A DNA stretch of 64,000 nucleotides from Escherichia phage PGN829.1. Location: the sequence record NC_070871.1. One strand, 5' to 3'. Of this stretch, positions 3,455-6,075 are shown piece by piece; the first letter of the stretch is position 1; the number at the start of each line of letters is the position of its first letter. The notes under the pieces were generated by a model that was not told the DNA's origin, did not search any database, and saw only the letters and a list, made by a program, of their open reading frames with translations. The position numbers and the translations under genes were made by a program.

Positions 3455-4672
3455 TTAACTTAATGCATAGTCTGTTTCGAGAATGTCCTGCCAGAGGCTG
3501 TCATCCAGCTTACCAGCAGAGAACTCTTGTCCCAGTACCTGAGACAGAATGAATCCCAGTAGGTCACTCTTAGCAATGTCAGACAGAATCTGGTTGTACT
3601 GACGACGTAAGTCATTACCGTAGTTAGGATGGCAACGGAAGCAGTCATGTACAGTCATTACAGGGAATGGTTTCTTAGGCATAGTATTGAGCATAGCCAT
3701 GATTACATCTGTATCAACCAATGCAATCGTTTCTGAGTCCAGATAGTCAAAGATACGGGTAGACAGGAAGCCAGACTTCTCATAACTAGTCCACAGTGTA
3801 TTAACCATTTCATAGTTATCATCAGAACCTACCATGTAGTCACCAGTTCCTTCACAGAGGGACTTAATATAGTTCACCTGGTTCATATCGAAGTTACAAC
3901 GACGTAGCATCTCACGTACCACCATTCCATCAATAGAGTGGGTGATGTTAGCAGAGAGCATACGGGTCTTCTCTTCAGTACCCTGAACCATACGAGTGAT
4001 GTCAAATGGCTTACCTAAGAAGTTAACAGTCTGTACTTCTGGAACCATGACCTTAATGACAGCATGGAAGTTGTCAGGTAATACCCATACGTAACGATTA
4101 GCATCCGGGTTACCACATTGCAGTAAGAACTTGTTAAGTGCCCAAGGACCACTTGCAACTGTTTCCATTACATTTTCAAAAGTCTTGAGACGGATACCAT
4201 CCCCGAATACTTCTTTAGGTTTGGCTTCTGAACCGTAGAATGCAGTCATAACTGCCTGCTTGGTATCACTACGTTTAATACGGGATGCTTCCCCAAGGAT
4301 GTCCAGCATCTTGTGATAGATAACTGTATAGGCATCACGACGTAATGGCTTACCATTCTCTCCCATGTAGTTAACTACGTTACACAGTTCAGCAGCAGAA
4401 CGGTCACCAGTCAGGCAGGCCAGTAACTGCAAGCCTGATGATGTAGCATCCAGGGCTACGGCATATCCGATAGGCTTACCAGCTTTCATATCTTTCCATG
4501 CGTTTATGCCAGCATAGAATAGTGCAGATTCTTCAGCTTCATCTACCAGATTAAGCAGGTTAGCTTCGTTCTCATCGAACCAAGCAATACGCTCATCCCA
4601 GGTCTTTTTATCCAGTCCGTAAGAATTCGCAATATCAATTTTTAAATACTCTTTCGGTGTGAAAATCTGCAT
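3455..4672 (-). CDS. T7-like single-subunit RNA polymerase, catalytic C-terminal part (N4 RNAP II gp16-like)
   Basis: T7 RNAP palm motifs: DATSSGLQ (motif A), K..YG (RSDTKQAVMTAFYGS, motif B), VHDCF (motif C); 405 aa. Confidence 0.8.
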   Translation of the reverse strand: MQIFTPKEYLKIDIANSYGLDKKTWDERIAWFDENEANLLNLVDEAEESALFYAGINAWKDMKAGKPIGYAVALDATSSGLQLLACLTGDRSAAELCNVVNYMGENGKPLRRDAYTVIYHKMLDILGEASRIKRSDTKQAVMTAFYGSEAKPKEVFGDGIRLKTFENVMETVASGPWALNKFLLQCGNPDANRYVWVLPDNFHAVIKVMVPEVQTVNFLGKPFDITRMVQGTEEKTRMLSANITHSIDGMVVREMLRRCNFDMNQVNYIKSLCEGTGDYMVGSDDNYEMVNTLWTSYEKSGFLSTRIFDYLDSETIALVDTDVIMAMLNTMPKKPFPVMTVHDCFRCHPNYGNDLRRQYNQILSDIAKSDLLGFILSQVLGQEFSAGKLDDSLWQDILETDYALS

Positions 4673-4673
4673 C

Positions 4674-5267
4674 TTAGGCTCCTAGTTTCCACTTATATCC
4701 GTATGCTTGTGCATACGTACCATTAATTACTTTATTAATATTAGAAGGTATACCATTAACACTTCGTGCAGCAGCACTGAGTGAATGGAACGTCTTAATG
4801 TATTCACCATCTAGTGAGTACTGCTCAACAGGTTTAGCTGATTTAGTATTGATGCCCTTGATTGCGTCGGAGTAGTACCTCTTTACGTTGGTATTAGCTG
4901 TAACAATGCGAATGTTATCCAGGGAGTAACCTTTGTAATCATCCAGTCTGTCTAAGCTAGGCTTCAAGGCAGTTGGGTAATTTTCCAATACCCACTCGTC
5001 ATACAATGTGTGAAATTCTTTTCTTGAGTATACCCATTTCTCTAGCTCCTCCTTAGTGAAGGATACAGGAGTAAATCCTTTCTTCTTGGTTCTACTAATA
5101 CAGCCGGAGTACATTTGATTAATGACTCCGTGTTTTGAGCGTATAAAGCGTTTAAGGCAGTCTTTACAGTCTGCCCTTACACCTTGCTTACCTGTGGACT
5201 GTTTATTGAACATGTCCAGAGGCAAGTTCTGCTTACATACTGAACATGTCTTCATACTAATCCTCAT
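4674..5267 (-). CDS. HNH homing endonuclease
   Basis: Cys-rich N-terminus, HNH-like LDRLDDYKGYSLDNIRIV, C-terminal homing-endonuclease DNA-binding repeat (YKWKL). Confidence 0.7.
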   Translation of the reverse strand: MRISMKTCSVCKQNLPLDMFNKQSTGKQGVRADCKDCLKRFIRSKHGVINQMYSGCISRTKKKGFTPVSFTKEELEKWVYSRKEFHTLYDEWVLENYPTALKPSLDRLDDYKGYSLDNIRIVTANTNVKRYYSDAIKGINTKSAKPVEQYSLDGEYIKTFHSLSAAARSVNGIPSNINKVINGTYAQAYGYKWKLGA

Positions 5268-6075
5268 TTACTAGTTCTTTGTCTGCAAATTCGATAACAG
5301 CTTTGTTATAGGAAGTACCTGCATAATTAATATGGTAACCACAGGCATATGTACGCCCTCGTTTGTCATATTTGTGAGCCAAGGAGAAGTTATTACCTTC
5401 TTTGGTCACTAACTCCATTACTTCCTTAGCAGTACGGCTGTACTTCTCAAAGGCTTTAACACGTTTCTCATAGTCCTGACGGGTTTCGCCTTCTTTGGGC
5501 TTATCCATATTAGGACGAGAGTCTTTTACATAGTTAGCAACGTCCCAGTTGATACTTAGTCGTTGATTATTCATACGGTTGATATGGTCAAGACAGACAT
5601 CCATCTCATGATGGTTCTTCTTGAGGATGATACTTCCCCTGCTCTCGTAGTAACCTGTATCACGGTTACACAGAACAGGCTTAGGAGCACTTACGATAGG
5701 TAATGGATACTGGAATGCTTCCAGTTCCATCTGAACATCTTCACTAATCTCATAGATAACACCGAACTTGTCGATGGTGGGGTCATAGTTGAAGCAGTCA
5801 TTCTCTGCCATCTTATACAGACAGTCAGCAATGTACTGAGCATCATCTGAATGGCTCATGAGAGAGCCAATCATAGTCTGAATGTCAGCACGTTTATGTA
5901 GGGCAATCTGCACCATTGCATCAATGAGCAGCTTATAATCAATTTCCAAATAGGCAGCGAATGCCTTAAAGTCAATTTCTTCGGAGTCCTCAAATTCCTT
6001 CCTCATGCGAGGCAAGAGCTGATTTTTATTGAATAGTTTTTCGAGTTGCTTCTGATGTTCAATGGATGAGTACAT
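5257..6075 (-). CDS. T7-like RNA polymerase N-terminal part (N4 RNAP II gp15-like)
   Basis: DKRGRTYACGYHINYAGTSYNKAV resembles T7 RNAP DWRGRVYAVSMFNPQGNDMTKGLL region; 272 aa. Confidence 0.6.
   Translation of the reverse strand: MYSSIEHQKQLEKLFNKNQLLPRMRKEFEDSEEIDFKAFAAYLEIDYKLLIDAMVQIALHKRADIQTMIGSLMSHSDDAQYIADCLYKMAENDCFNYDPTIDKFGVIYEISEDVQMELEAFQYPLPIVSAPKPVLCNRDTGYYESRGSIILKKNHHEMDVCLDHINRMNNQRLSINWDVANYVKDSRPNMDKPKEGETRQDYEKRVKAFEKYSRTAKEVMELVTKEGNNFSLAHKYDKRGRTYACGYHINYAGTSYNKAVIEFADKELVNED

What the first reader, a model, noticed from the sequence alone, without database searches (positions are those of the whole stretch)
3455..6075. HNH endonuclease inserted between the two halves of the split T7-like RNAP II
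The gp15-like and gp16-like ORFs together span a T7-type RNAP (N-terminal DKRGRTYA region; C-terminal motifs A, B, C), consistent with the known heterodimeric N4 RNAP II. Here a 197-aa HNH homing endonuclease (4674-5267) is wedged between them with 1-nt and 11-nt overlaps. The window carries four clear HNH genes (4674, 9087, 55664, 58853), all beside or inside polymerase or primase genes.
Basis: partly seen in the sequence, partly recalled or inferred. Interest (0 to 1): 0.45.

Follow-up and report, generated by a model that had tools for sequence, protein, structure and literature searches.

The report
Homing endonuclease between N4-type RNAP subunits
A small, probably mobile, nuclease gene sits exactly between the two genes that encode the two halves of this G7C-like coliphage's middle-gene RNA polymerase; the gene is real, but it is already annotated in phage G7C and has already been discussed in print.

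Summary
The three minus-strand ORFs exist as described. They are gp15-like (5257-6075), a middle ORF (4674-5255/5267) and gp16-like (3455-4672). The window is a Gamaleyavirus (G7C-like, N4-like coliphage).

The middle ORF is the ortholog (94-96% aa) of G7C gp15.1, annotated as 'putative HNH homing endonuclease'. A 2017 paper already cited it as support for the idea that a homing endonuclease split the RNAP.

Corrections:
- The real start is ATG 5255 (193 aa).
- There are 1-nt gaps on both sides, not overlaps.
- The protein hits no Pfam HNH model. It is a PacI-like His-Me finger (invariant D-R...Y...N, with Arg where HNH has His), with a Zn ribbon and an I-HmuI/NUMOD1 DNA-binding tail.

What I add:
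- The gene is sporadic: 4 sequenced phages plus this window.
- The junction is a hot spot, with at least 6 alternative occupants in the genus.
- The first ~45 nt of gp16 form a haplotype found only in genomes that carry this gene.
- Relatives at 40-57% identity abut gp16 in at least 6 other N4-like lineages.
- Uncultivated N4-like phages carry unsplit (648-703 aa) versions of this RNAP.

Best reading: a free-standing homing endonuclease gene. Nuclease activity and target site are untested. This is already known and of low to moderate interest.

The parts
5257..6075 (-). gp15-like RNAP II small subunit (272 aa), the N-terminal half of a T7-type RNAP. It ends ...DKRGRTYACGYHINYAGTSYNKAVIEFADKELVNED; the stop TAG is at 5259-5257.
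   Evidence: phrog_2166 1.3e-115; 65% id to N4 gp15; colinear with T7 RNAP up to residue ~453.
4674..5255 (-). Free-standing homing endonuclease gene, ortholog of G7C gp15.1 (193 aa, MKTCSVCK...). The ORF finder's upstream ATG at 5267 (197 aa) is not conserved.
   Evidence: 94% aa to G7C 15.1 'putative HNH homing endonuclease'; all homologs start MKTCS; AF2 pLDDT 92; I-HmuI and PacI are the top structural matches; dN/dS 0.06-0.10.
5154..5246 (-). N-terminal zinc ribbon of the endonuclease (C4-x2-C7 ... C31-x2-C34).
   Evidence: Sequence. The profile aligns this stretch to the Cys-rich N-termini of PacI and Hpy99I, though the E-values are not significant. Stc1, Lar-like and endoVII-like PHROG hits cover aa 2-62.
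4887..4961 (-). His-Me finger core, PSLDRLDDYKGYSLDNIRIVTANTN (aa 99-123). D102, R103, Y110 and N123 are invariant in 18 homologs. It corresponds to PacI D92, R93, Y100 and N113.
   Evidence: invariant columns; alignment to PacI GVDRSDSFEGYSPQNARLACFICN; fold matches; PacI uses Tyr in place of the catalytic His.
4731..4835 (-). C-terminal NUMOD1 / I-HmuI-like helix-turn-helix DNA-binding module.
5261..5265 (-). Shine-Dalgarno GAGGA for the endonuclease, lying inside the last codons of gp15, 5 nt before ATG 5255.
   Evidence: Read directly from the sequence.
4679..4683 (-). Shine-Dalgarno AGGAG for gp16, lying inside the last codons of the endonuclease gene, 6 nt before ATG 4672. It replaces the hairpin and SD spacer seen in HEG-less relatives.
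3455..4672 (-). gp16-like RNAP II large subunit (405 aa) carrying T7-type motifs A, B and C.
   Evidence: PF00940 7.2e-15; phrog_2051 2.1e-176; 69% id to N4 gp16.
4625..4672 (-). HEG-linked haplotype of the first ~45 nt of gp16 (MQIFT..YLKI, against MQLLT..YLKV in all other Gamaleyaviruses). It is the right-hand co-converted flank and the candidate immunity or target region.
   Evidence: alignment; nt 1-60 are 58-68% identical to non-G7C-type genomes and 82-92% to G7C-type, while nt >60 are 87-100% identical to all; the 60-nt stretch is found only in the 5 records that carry the HEG, out of 50,697 phage records.
6109..6123 (-). Terminator-like hairpin upstream of gp15. It marks the 5' edge of the three-gene block.
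   Evidence: consensus scan only.
3423..3448 (-). Terminator-like hairpin (11 bp stem plus T-run) just after gp16. No promoter- or terminator-like site separates the three ORFs.
   Evidence: G7C annotates a stem-loop at the equivalent place.
58853..59509 (-). Second endonuclease named in the finding: a 218-aa HNH-type ORF that splits DNA polymerase A into 59506-61323 and 57901-58896.
   Evidence: phrog_374 2.9e-63; no Pfam hit; same arrangement in U1G, phi G17 and ST4; absent from most relatives.
55664..56152 (-). Third endonuclease named in the finding: HNH_3+AP2, between primase (53521-55671) and exonuclease (56149-57126).
   Evidence: (HNH_3 6.3e-12).
9087..9560 (-). Fourth endonuclease named in the finding: HNH_3+AP2. 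Its neighbours are small ORFs of unknown function, not a polymerase or primase.
   Evidence: (HNH_3 2.9e-17).

Best explanation
The ORF at 4674-5255(-) is a free-standing homing endonuclease gene (HEG), the ortholog of phage G7C gp15.1. It sits in the gap between the two genes (gp15, gp16) of the heterodimeric N4-type RNA polymerase II.

Shown:
- It encodes a three-part protein. A CxxC...CxxC zinc ribbon is followed by a PacI-like His-Me finger nuclease core (D102-R103...Y110...N123, with Arg where classical HNH enzymes have the catalytic His). An I-HmuI/NUMOD1-type DNA-binding tail completes it.
- It is present in only a few members of the genus. Other members carry other cassettes or small ORFs at the same junction.
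- It is under purifying selection.
- It travels with a private ~45-nt version of the gp16 5' end.
- It has replaced the native spacer, so its own last codons supply the ribosome-binding site of gp16, and the last codons of gp15 supply its own.

Inferred:
- The three genes are co-transcribed early and translated by coupling.
- During mixed infection, the enzyme cuts or nicks the HEG-less allele in or near the first ~45 nt of gp16. Repair from the HEG-carrying genome then copies the gene and its short flanks into the rival genome.
- The private gp16 codons make the carrier immune to its own enzyme.
- Catalysis probably follows the PacI scheme (one metal held by D102/N123, with Tyr110 taking the role of the missing His).
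For: Identity and annotation:
- 94-96% aa identity to genes at the same place in G7C, ST4 and Bas96, and 86% in Moonfish.

Fold:
- The AF2 model has pLDDT 92.
- The motif aligns residue for residue to PacI D92/R93/Y100/N113, and these residues are invariant in 18 homologs.
- PacI is an active nuclease that uses Tyr instead of His (PMC5714182, PMC3384342).

Mobility signatures:
- It is absent from N4, which has a 47-nt spacer, and from most of the 59 Gamaleyavirus records.
- At least 6 occupant types share the junction.
- There is a sharp identity drop confined to gp16 nt 1-60.
- That stretch is found only in HEG carriers.
- The same genome has a DNA-polymerase region 98.6% identical to U1G, which lacks this HEG, so the genome is a mosaic.

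Selection:
- dN/dS is 0.06-0.10, similar to gp15 and gp16.

Site fidelity:
- Homologs of 40-57% identity lie 0-22 nt upstream of gp16 in 6 other divergent N4-like lineages.

Not an intron:
- There are separate start and stop codons, no Rfam hit, and no internal terminator.
Against: - No biochemical or genetic test of cleavage or homing exists for this protein or for any close relative that I could find.
- The canonical catalytic His is replaced by Arg. An engineered His-to-Arg change kills a classical HNH homing enzyme (PhiPA3 gp210 H82R). Activity therefore rests entirely on the PacI analogy, and the sequence-level match to PacI is not statistically significant on its own (E 0.46).
- No 'empty' allele with otherwise identical flanks was found. 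HEG-less genomes carry other ORFs there, so spread would be cassette replacement rather than simple insertion.
- Strong purifying selection, together with identity that tracks gp16 identity across lineages (Spearman 0.64), could also mean long vertical residence with a useful function.
- The target site is a prediction from linkage only.
Confidence: 0.8

Rival explanations
1. The gene is kept because it benefits the phage. It would act as a weapon in mixed infections by cutting the essential RNAP II genes of related HEG-less phages (interference competition or marker exclusion). Less likely, it is an accessory factor of RNAP II. On this reading it is not purely selfish DNA. This overlaps with the best explanation and differs only in what maintains the gene.
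For: - dN/dS of 0.06-0.10 is as low as for the polymerase subunits.
- The same clade sits at the same junction in at least 7 divergent N4-like lineages, and its divergence roughly tracks that of gp16.
- Translation is tightly coupled to gp16 in every lineage, with a 0-22 nt gap.
- There is a precedent: the intron-encoded HNH enzyme gp210 of PhiPA3 nicks the RNAP gene of co-infecting PhiKZ and gives a competitive advantage (PMC11620839).
Against: - Only 4 of the sequenced Gamaleyaviruses carry it, and N4 lacks it, so it is dispensable for RNAP II function.
- Four different endonuclease genes and two small ORF families replace one another at the site. That looks like turnover of parasites rather than a conserved function.
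- No competition data exist.
Confidence: 0.3
2. The protein is a catalytically dead relic that only binds DNA, for example as a local repressor, or it is on its way to being lost. The missing His would mean that the nuclease is inactive.
For: - Arg replaces the His general base.
- No curated HNH model recognises the protein.
- An H-to-R change inactivates a classical HNH homing enzyme.
- His-Me domains that have lost catalysis but kept DNA binding are known, such as SMAD MH1.
Against: - The D-R...Y...N set is invariant across 18 homologs down to 36% identity.
- It matches the active site of PacI, a working restriction enzyme that uses Tyr.
- The ORF is intact in all 18+ near-identical metagenomic copies and is under purifying selection.
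- The presence/absence pattern and the linked flank indicate recent mobility.
Confidence: 0.08
3. [quoted passage not shown]
For: - A spliced group I intron with an endonuclease ORF does occur elsewhere in gp16 (motif B) in the G7C relatives N4G2 and Sz33 (bioRxiv 10.1101/542787).
- Unsplit 648-703-aa versions of the polymerase exist in metagenomes.
Against: - gp15 ends with its own stop codon and gp16 starts with its own SD and ATG.
- N4, which has no insert, is split at the same point, with a 47-nt spacer.
- No Rfam intron family matches at E<=1.
- The ORF is in a different frame arrangement, with 1-nt gaps, and has no intein blocks.
- The N4 enzyme is described in the literature as a two-subunit enzyme (PMC5418858).
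Confidence: 0.01

Closest known systems
Escherichia phage vB_EcoP_G7C gene 15.1 (AEL79623 / YP_004782142), 'putative HNH homing endonuclease'
   Same: Ortholog. It is 94% aa identical, 193 aa long, in the same position between gp15 and gp16, with the same 1-nt gaps and the same linked gp16 5' haplotype. PMC5418858 already noted that it lies between the RNAP subunit genes.
   Different: About 10% nucleotide divergence. The left flank (last ~140 nt of gp15) has a different mosaic history. The window also has a chance upstream ATG at 5267.
R.PacI (PDB 3ldy/3m7k), the rare-cutting HNH-superfamily restriction enzyme; His-Me finger 'group 20'
   Same: N-terminal Cys-rich zinc region followed by a beta-beta-alpha core with the motif VDRxDxxxGYSxxN......N. 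Arg stands at the usual His position and there is a conserved Tyr in the loop.
   Different: PacI is a 142-aa homodimeric restriction enzyme with two Zn sites and no NUMOD/HTH tail. Here only one Cys4 site is evident, and a 70-aa I-HmuI-like DNA-binding module is appended. The sequence similarity is not significant by itself (E 0.46). The biological role is homing rather than restriction.
I-HmuI (PDB 1u3e), the intron-encoded HNH homing endonuclease of Bacillus phage SPO1
   Different: I-HmuI has the canonical D74-H75...N96 active site, is intron-encoded, and nicks one strand. The window protein is free-standing and lacks the His.
PacI-like HNH endonucleases of lactococcal Skunavirus phages (PMC12724721)
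   Same: Free-standing, sporadically present, site-specific insertion in phage genomes, and classed as PacI-like by profile comparison. They are presumed homing enzymes.
   Different: Different phage family and insertion site (the morphogenesis module). I did not test sequence relatedness to the window protein.
Genes-in-pieces made by free-standing endonuclease genes: the non-spliced g39 insertion of G7C-like phage 10Gb, and the split nrd genes of Aeh1 and Twort cited in PMC5418858
   Same: An endonuclease ORF lies between two halves of an essential enzyme gene, the halves are translated separately, and the downstream half uses an SD provided by the insert. The window itself carries the g39-type split.
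   Different: At gp15/gp16 the split exists in all cultured N4-like phages, with or without an insert. The endonuclease here therefore occupies an old break rather than having demonstrably made it.
PhiPA3 gp210, the intron HNH endonuclease that targets a phage RNAP gene (PMC11620839)
   Same: A phage endonuclease associated with, and presumably targeting, an essential phage RNA polymerase gene of related co-infecting phages.
   Different: gp210 is intron-encoded, has a canonical HNH, and targets a multisubunit-type RNAP beta subunit. Its activity is demonstrated, whereas here it is only inferred.

Membership tests
HNH / His-Me finger (beta-beta-alpha-metal) nuclease superfamily | Beta-hairpin plus alpha-helix core fold | tested here: met
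HNH / His-Me finger (beta-beta-alpha-metal) nuclease superfamily | Catalytic His (general base) at the end of the first strand | tested here: not met
   That position is Arg103, invariant in 18 homologs. There is no Pfam HNH, HNH_3 or Endonuclease_7 hit at E<=0.1.
HNH / His-Me finger (beta-beta-alpha-metal) nuclease superfamily | Metal-ligand Asn/His on the core helix, and an acidic residue before the base | tested here: met
   N123 and D102 are invariant and align to PacI N113 and D92.
PacI-like His-Me finger group (group 20 of PMC5714182) | His absent, with a conserved Tyr in the omega-loop that takes over its role | tested here: met
   Y110 is invariant and aligns to PacI Y100 within GYS. 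The role of the Tyr is taken from the literature and was not tested.
PacI-like His-Me finger group (group 20 of PMC5714182) | Statistically significant sequence or structure similarity to PacI | tested here: inconclusive
PacI-like His-Me finger group (group 20 of PMC5714182) | Two Cys4 zinc sites per subunit | tested here: inconclusive
   One CxxC...CxxC set (C4, C7, C31, C34) is conserved. A second set was not found, and the PacI helix cysteines (CFIC) are not conserved.
Free-standing homing endonuclease gene | Nuclease domain joined to a sequence-reading DNA-binding module | tested here: met
   NUMOD1 at 8.5e-8 and an I-HmuI-like tail.
Free-standing homing endonuclease gene | Sporadic presence among close relatives, at a fixed site in or beside a conserved gene | tested here: met
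   It is present in 4 phages plus the window, out of 59 Gamaleyavirus records with the RNAP II region. It is absent from N4.
Free-standing homing endonuclease gene | Flanking sequence co-inherited with the gene (a co-conversion tract or immunity polymorphisms) | tested here: met
   The gp16 nt 1-60 haplotype is exclusive to carriers.
Free-standing homing endonuclease gene | Site-specific cleavage of the gene-less allele and super-Mendelian inheritance in crosses | not testable with these tools
   This needs enzyme assays and mixed infections.
T4 endonuclease VII family (the label carried by phrog_1035 and several GenBank records) | Match to Endonuclease_7 (PF02945) and the DH-x-H...N catalytic motif | tested here: not met
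   No PF02945 hit at E<=0.1, and the motif is DR...Y...N. The 'endonuclease VII' name is inherited from a similarity to an rV5 protein.
N4-type heterodimeric RNA polymerase II (gp15+gp16) | Orthology of both flanking genes to N4 gp15 and gp16, which together are colinear with a T7-type RNAP | tested here: met
   65% and 69% identity to N4. There is a continuous alignment with T7 RNAP across the junction at about residue 453, and motifs A, B and C are present.
N4-type heterodimeric RNA polymerase II (gp15+gp16) | The two polypeptides assemble into an active enzyme | not testable with these tools
   This is known for N4 from the literature cited in PMC5418858. It was not tested for this phage.
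Group I intron or intein with an endonuclease ORF | Ribozyme core or intein splicing blocks, with the host gene restored after splicing | tested here: not met
   No Rfam match at E<=1 apart from a chance 20-bit hammerhead hit. The flanking genes have independent stop, SD and start signals.

The most novel reading that the evidence does not exclude
The PacI-like endonuclease clade that abuts the gp16 start codon may descend from the element that originally broke a single-chain N4-type RNA polymerase into gp15 and gp16. It is found in Gamaleyavirus, in Vibrio phage pVco-5 and in five other divergent uncultivated N4-like lineages, and on this reading it has persisted at the break point ever since. 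The unsplit 648-703-aa RNAP II genes found here in uncultivated N4-like phages would then be either surviving pre-insertion alleles or repeated re-fusions after loss of the element. That would make the two-subunit architecture of a whole phage family the by-product of one selfish gene. A rough tree places the fused forms as nested and polyphyletic, which favours re-fusion and leaves the origin open.
Probability: 0.15. Interest if true: 0.6.

Novelty: already known. Interest (0 to 1): 0.25.

Why it matters
The finding as given matters little. The gene has been annotated in G7C since the genome was deposited. Both its position between the RNAP subunit genes and the idea that a homing endonuclease created the two-subunit enzyme were published in 2017 (PMC5418858).

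The modest value lies in the refinements:
1. The enzyme belongs to the rare His-less, PacI-like branch of the His-Me finger superfamily, not to classical HNH or endonuclease VII. This corrects database labels and predicts a Tyr-dependent mechanism for a homing enzyme.
2. The gp15/gp16 junction is a hot spot where at least four endonuclease genes of two families and two small ORF families replace one another within one genus. This makes it a convenient natural system for studying competition between selfish elements for one site.
3. A dedicated clade of these enzymes follows the junction across distant N4-like phages, and unsplit versions of the polymerase exist in nature. Together these make the 'endonuclease split the polymerase' hypothesis testable by phylogenetic reconciliation and by cleavage assays on unsplit alleles.

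Tried and rejected
- **Curated family models.** Pfam gave only NUMOD1 above its cutoff, plus sub-threshold hits, and no HNH model. NCBIfam gave only a sub-threshold group I intron endonuclease hit at 19 bits against a cutoff of 56.
- **Sequence search of the PDB.** The single sequence gave nothing meaningful. The profile ranked I-HmuI, PacI and Hpy99I at non-significant E-values of 0.24-0.51. I used these only for residue correspondence.
- **The 197-aa start and 11-nt overlap.** Rejected, because the upstream ATG is absent in G7C and Moonfish and all homologs start at MKTCS.
- **Intron or intein reading.** Rejected.
- **The 'endonuclease VII' label.** Rejected.
- **A possible RNA element in the spacer.** The small hairpin in the spacer of HEG-less alleles folds only weakly relative to shuffles (z -1.1 to -2.2). 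It was not pursued.
- **A fused gp15-gp16 in cultured phages.** The single-HSP tblastn matches spanning the junction in Vibrio phages D496 and D267 turned out to be an in-frame stop plus a 22-24-nt spacer, so those genes are still split. The best 40 matches to a fused junction were all two-piece.
- An IMG/VR scan for relatives of the fused protein P0049 found nothing. The PacI structure paper (PMC2886031) is not held, so PacI's mechanism is cited from two reviews.
- **Vertical versus horizontal history.** I tried to separate these using pairwise identities. The correlation is positive (0.64) but there are clear incongruences: the window HEG is closest to L025/L026, while its gp16 is closest to L016/L023/L024. 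The NJ trees have no support values.

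
Full report
**What is there.**
On the minus strand of the window there are three tightly packed ORFs.
- 5257-6075 (272 aa) matches PHROG 2166 'N4-like RNA polymerase' at 1.3e-115. It is 65% identical to N4 gp15.
- 3455-4672 (405 aa) matches Pfam RNA_pol at 7.2e-15 and PHROG 2051 at 2.1e-176. It is 69% identical to N4 gp16.
- The 4674-5267 ORF lies between them.

Aligned with T7 RNAP, gp16 carries motifs A, B and C. The concatenated gp15+gp16 run colinearly through the junction at about T7 residue 453 with only a few residues of indel.

Megablast places the window in the genus Gamaleyavirus (G7C-like N4-like coliphages). 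It is 91-93% identical to ST4, Bas96 and G7C over this region.

**Corrections to the observation.**
- The stop of the middle ORF is TAA at 4676-4674. One base (4673) follows, and then the gp16 ATG at 4672. That is a 1-nt gap, not an overlap.
- The 11-nt overlap with gp15 depends on ATG 5267. That ATG arises from a synonymous AAT codon of gp15 and is missing in G7C and Moonfish, which have AAC.
- All 17 homologs aligned, and the G7C annotation, start at MKTCS. The real start is therefore ATG 5255, 1 nt after the gp15 TAG.
- A GAGGA Shine-Dalgarno sequence lies at 5265-5261. An AGGAG inside the last codons of the middle ORF (4683-4679) serves gp16.
- Terminator-like hairpins lie only outside the block, at 6123-6109 and 3448-3423. 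No promoter- or terminator-like site lies between the ORF boundaries. The three genes therefore look co-transcribed and translationally coupled. This is an inference.

**What the middle protein is.**
It is not a 'clear HNH' by sequence.
- Its only Pfam hit above the curated cutoff is NUMOD1 (8.5e-8) in the C-terminal part. No HNH model hits it.
- NCBIfam gives only a sub-threshold hit. phmmer against the PDB gives nothing meaningful.
- PHROG 1035, labelled 'endonuclease VII', matches at 6.5e-31.

An alignment of 18 homologs down to 36% identity shows an invariant block, P99 S100 D102 R103 D106 Y110 L112 N123, plus a CxxC...CxxC pair at the N-terminus.

An AlphaFold2 model built on that alignment is confident (pLDDT 92.3).
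- Foldseek's two best PDB matches are the HNH homing endonuclease I-HmuI (E 5.5e-5) and the restriction enzyme PacI (E 2.4e-3).
- A profile search of PDB sequences is not significant by E-value. It nevertheless aligns 'SvDRlDDykgYsLdNiqlvtvkeN' to PacI 'GVDRSDSFEGYSPQNARLACFICN'. This equates D102/R103/Y110/N123 with PacI D92/R93/Y100/N113.

According to two reviews, PacI is the known case of a His-Me finger nuclease that lacks the catalytic histidine and uses a loop tyrosine instead (PMC5714182, PMC3384342).

The protein is therefore a PacI-like His-Me finger nuclease with a zinc ribbon in front and an I-HmuI/NUMOD1 DNA-binding tail behind. 'HNH' is right at superfamily level only, and 'endonuclease VII' is a misnomer. 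PacI-like enzymes have recently been listed among presumed homing endonucleases of lactococcal phages (PMC12724721), so this class assignment is not new in kind.

**Evidence that it behaves as a mobile gene.**
tblastn finds near-identical copies only in ST4, Bas96, G7C and Moonfish. The other Gamaleyaviruses align with the flanks but not with the insert.

Reading the junction in eleven genomes shows the following occupants:
- N4: a 47-nt spacer.
- U1G, Bp4, PhAPEC7: a 53-aa ORF.
- AN24P2: an ~80-aa ORF.
- 24-32N: both small ORFs.
- UE-S5a and PW8: two different HNH_3+AP2 genes.
- pSb-1 and HK2: a second PacI-like gene, only 32% identical.
- This window, G7C, ST4, Bas96 and Moonfish: the G7C type.

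A search with all the cassettes concatenated assigns the sequenced phages as follows:
- G7C type: 4 phages.
- pSb-1 type: 2.
- UE-S5a type: 4.
- PW8 type: 3.
- ~80-aa ORF: 11.
- The rest: the 53-aa ORF or unclassified.

All non-G7C types keep a short hairpin and SD spacer before gp16. The G7C type has lost it.

Identity profiles show a sharp boundary. The first 60 nt of gp16 are 58-68% identical to every non-G7C-type genome but 82-92% identical to G7C-type genomes. From nt 61 on, all genomes are 87-100% identical until a separate mosaic block at nt ~781-960 (described below). The differences give L3I, L4F and V12I plus silent changes.

That 60-nt stretch is found in exactly the five records that carry the gene, and in no other of the 50,697 phage records. 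The last ~140 nt of gp15 are a mosaic of several haplotypes.

The DNA-polymerase region of this same window is 98.6% identical to U1G, a phage without this gene. The endonuclease genes therefore assort independently.

The gene is under purifying selection. Its dN/dS is 0.06-0.10, against 0.03-0.05 for gp15 and 0.10-0.24 for gp16.

It is not part of an intron. No Rfam family matches, the flanking genes have their own signals, and N4 is split at the same point without any insert.

**A junction-specific clade.**
The closest homologs outside the genus (45-57% identity; P0019, P0022-P0025) all lie immediately upstream of a gp16 homolog on contigs of other N4-like phages, with a 0-9 nt gap or a 1-4 nt overlap. 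The gp16 of those phages is only 40-54% identical to the window's. Vibrio phage pVco-5 (40% identity) has the same arrangement.

- Members found in other contexts, such as next to a capsid gene or a peptidase, cluster apart.
- pSb-1's gene clusters with those of Acinetobacter phage XC38 and Erwinia phage MIF8, which lie downstream of gp16.
- Endonuclease identity correlates with gp16 identity (Spearman 0.64 without pSb-1), but there are incongruences. The NJ tree has no support values.
- The HEG-linked gp16 start (MQIFT..YLKI) resembles N4 and the other lineages more than it resembles the HEG-less Gamaleyaviruses (MQLLT..YLKV). This fits import of the cassette together with a short piece of foreign gp16.

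**How it most likely works.**
Shown: the domain architecture, the sporadic distribution, the linked flank, the selection, and the replacement of the native spacer.

Inferred: the gene is transcribed early with gp15 and gp16. In mixed infections its product nicks or cuts HEG-less genomes in or near the first ~45 nt of gp16. Recombinational repair then copies the gene and its short flanks. The carrier's private codons protect it from its own enzyme.

Linkage that has survived recombination down to ~45 nt is what points to that stretch as the target or immunity region. It is a prediction, not a result.

The main caveat is the Arg in place of His. An engineered H82R change kills the classical HNH enzyme gp210 of PhiPA3, so activity here rests on the PacI analogy. 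That same paper shows that a phage endonuclease aimed at a rival's RNAP gene can confer a competitive advantage. This is the main rival, or complement, to a purely selfish reading.

**Comparison with what is known.**
G7C's record annotates the same gene as '15.1, putative HNH homing endonuclease'.

Amgarten et al. 2017 (PMC5418858, section 10) state that G7C has one putative HNH endonuclease between the RNAP subunit genes. They note that between zero and eight genes separate RNAP1 and RNAP2 in N4-like phages. They propose that a homing endonuclease insertion split an ancestral single-unit RNAP.

A preprint from the G7C laboratory (10.1101/542787) describes a spliced group I intron in gp16 motif B. 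It also describes a non-spliced endonuclease insertion that splits DNA polymerase gp39 into two polypeptides. The window has that same kind of DNA-polymerase split.

Both the observation and its evolutionary interpretation are therefore already published.

**An extra result that bears on the published hypothesis.**
An exhaustive phmmer search with gp15 found 787 relatives. Among the best 150 cluster representatives, four are 648-703 aa long and read straight through the junction into gp16 (for example ...EFANMELPSEHGLEVLTMDIAGSFGLDKK...).

Two of them lie on 72-73 kb contigs that also carry N4 gp2-like, rIIB-like or AAA ATPase genes. Each of these two has three sequence variants from different samples.

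Unsplit N4-type RNAP II genes therefore exist in uncultivated N4-like phages. I found none among cultured phages.

In a rough NJ tree the four fused forms are not monophyletic, and each is nested among split-size neighbours. This favours repeated re-fusion over survival of an ancestral state, but the tree has no support values.

**Verdict.**
It is, however, a re-discovery of an annotated and discussed gene. Interest is 0.25 and novelty is 'already known'.

The most novel reading not excluded is that this endonuclease clade is the element that originally split the polymerase. I put that at about 0.15.

Noticed in passing
window 57901-61323 (-): DNA polymerase A is in two ORFs (59506-61323 and 57901-58896), separated by a 218-aa HNH-type ORF (58853-59509; phrog_374, no Pfam hit). 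The same arrangement occurs in U1G (98.6% id), phi G17 and ST4, and is absent from most relatives. It matches the non-spliced g39 insertion shown for phage 10Gb to yield two polypeptides (bioRxiv 10.1101/542787).
   Followed up: partly
metagenome loci L030 (2086-4110), L031 (5549-7594), L032 (3010-5121); proteins P0049, P0113, P0143, P0162: These are single ORFs of 648-703 aa in which gp15 and gp16 are fused in frame. Two of them lie on 72-73 kb N4-like contigs with N4 gp2-like genes. The four are polyphyletic and nested among split forms in a rough NJ tree. I found no cultured phage with this state and no mention of it in the papers I read.
   Followed up: partly
L005 (Moonfish) 365-2550; L016 4085-6287; L012 (pVco-5) 3138-5234; L013 (XC38) 356-2430; L024 786-2408: In relatives, gp16 is interrupted again by further endonuclease ORFs at two recurrent points. 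One is near aa 343. The other is at aa ~140-143, which is motif B (QAVMTAFYGSEAK), the site of the spliced group I intron reported in N4G2 and Sz33. I did not test whether these particular inserts splice.
   Followed up: no
L002 (U1G) 2873-2918, L011 (N4) 914-960, L009 (Bp4) 1673-1727: HEG-less junctions keep a small hairpin just upstream of the gp16 SD. There are two sequence variants in Gamaleyavirus (GAGCC-AAGA-GGCTC and GGCTCTCC-ATAG-TGGGGAGCC) and a shorter one in N4. Folding is only weakly better than shuffles (z -1.1 to -2.2). Its function is unknown, and it is deleted in G7C-type genomes.
   Followed up: partly
L002 2919-3080, L009 1728-1889, L006 ~1860-2090, L007 1857-2096: Two unrelated small ORF families (53 aa, MKTNIGSYELWVN...; and ~80 aa) alternate or co-occur at the gp15/gp16 junction in genomes without an endonuclease there. 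They have no family hits and show no detectable similarity to the endonucleases, so they are not obvious remnants.
   Followed up: partly
window 3712-3892 (gp16 nt ~781-960) and 5257-5400 (last ~140 nt of gp15): There are further mosaic blocks. In gp16 nt 781-960 the window is 40-70% identical to pSb-1, UE-S5a, Moonfish, AN24P2 and Bp4, but 83-100% identical to U1G, 24-32N, PW8 and PhAPEC7. The gp15 3' end shows several haplotypes that do not track the junction cassette.
   Followed up: no
L023 330-2062: One metagenomic N4-like contig carries two endonuclease genes (HNH_3+AP2, 175 aa; PacI-like, 207 aa) plus a 120-aa ORF, all between gp15 and gp16. This shows stacking of elements at the junction.
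   Followed up: no
L028 (Vibrio phage D496) 1295-3868; L029 (D267) 1542-3742: In these Vibrio phages the gp15 equivalent is itself in two ORFs (about 320 aa, plus 105 or 57 aa). The small ORF is in the same frame as gp16, separated from it only by a stop and a 22-24-nt spacer.
   Followed up: partly
window 55664-56152 (-) and 9087-9560 (-): These are two HNH_3+AP2 endonuclease genes. The first lies between primase and exonuclease, overlapping both by a few bases. The second lies among small early ORFs of unknown function.
   Followed up: partly
window 5450-5525 (-): A Hammerhead_HH9 match at 20.1 bits (gathering score 52, E 0.13) lies inside gp15. I treat it as chance.
   Followed up: no
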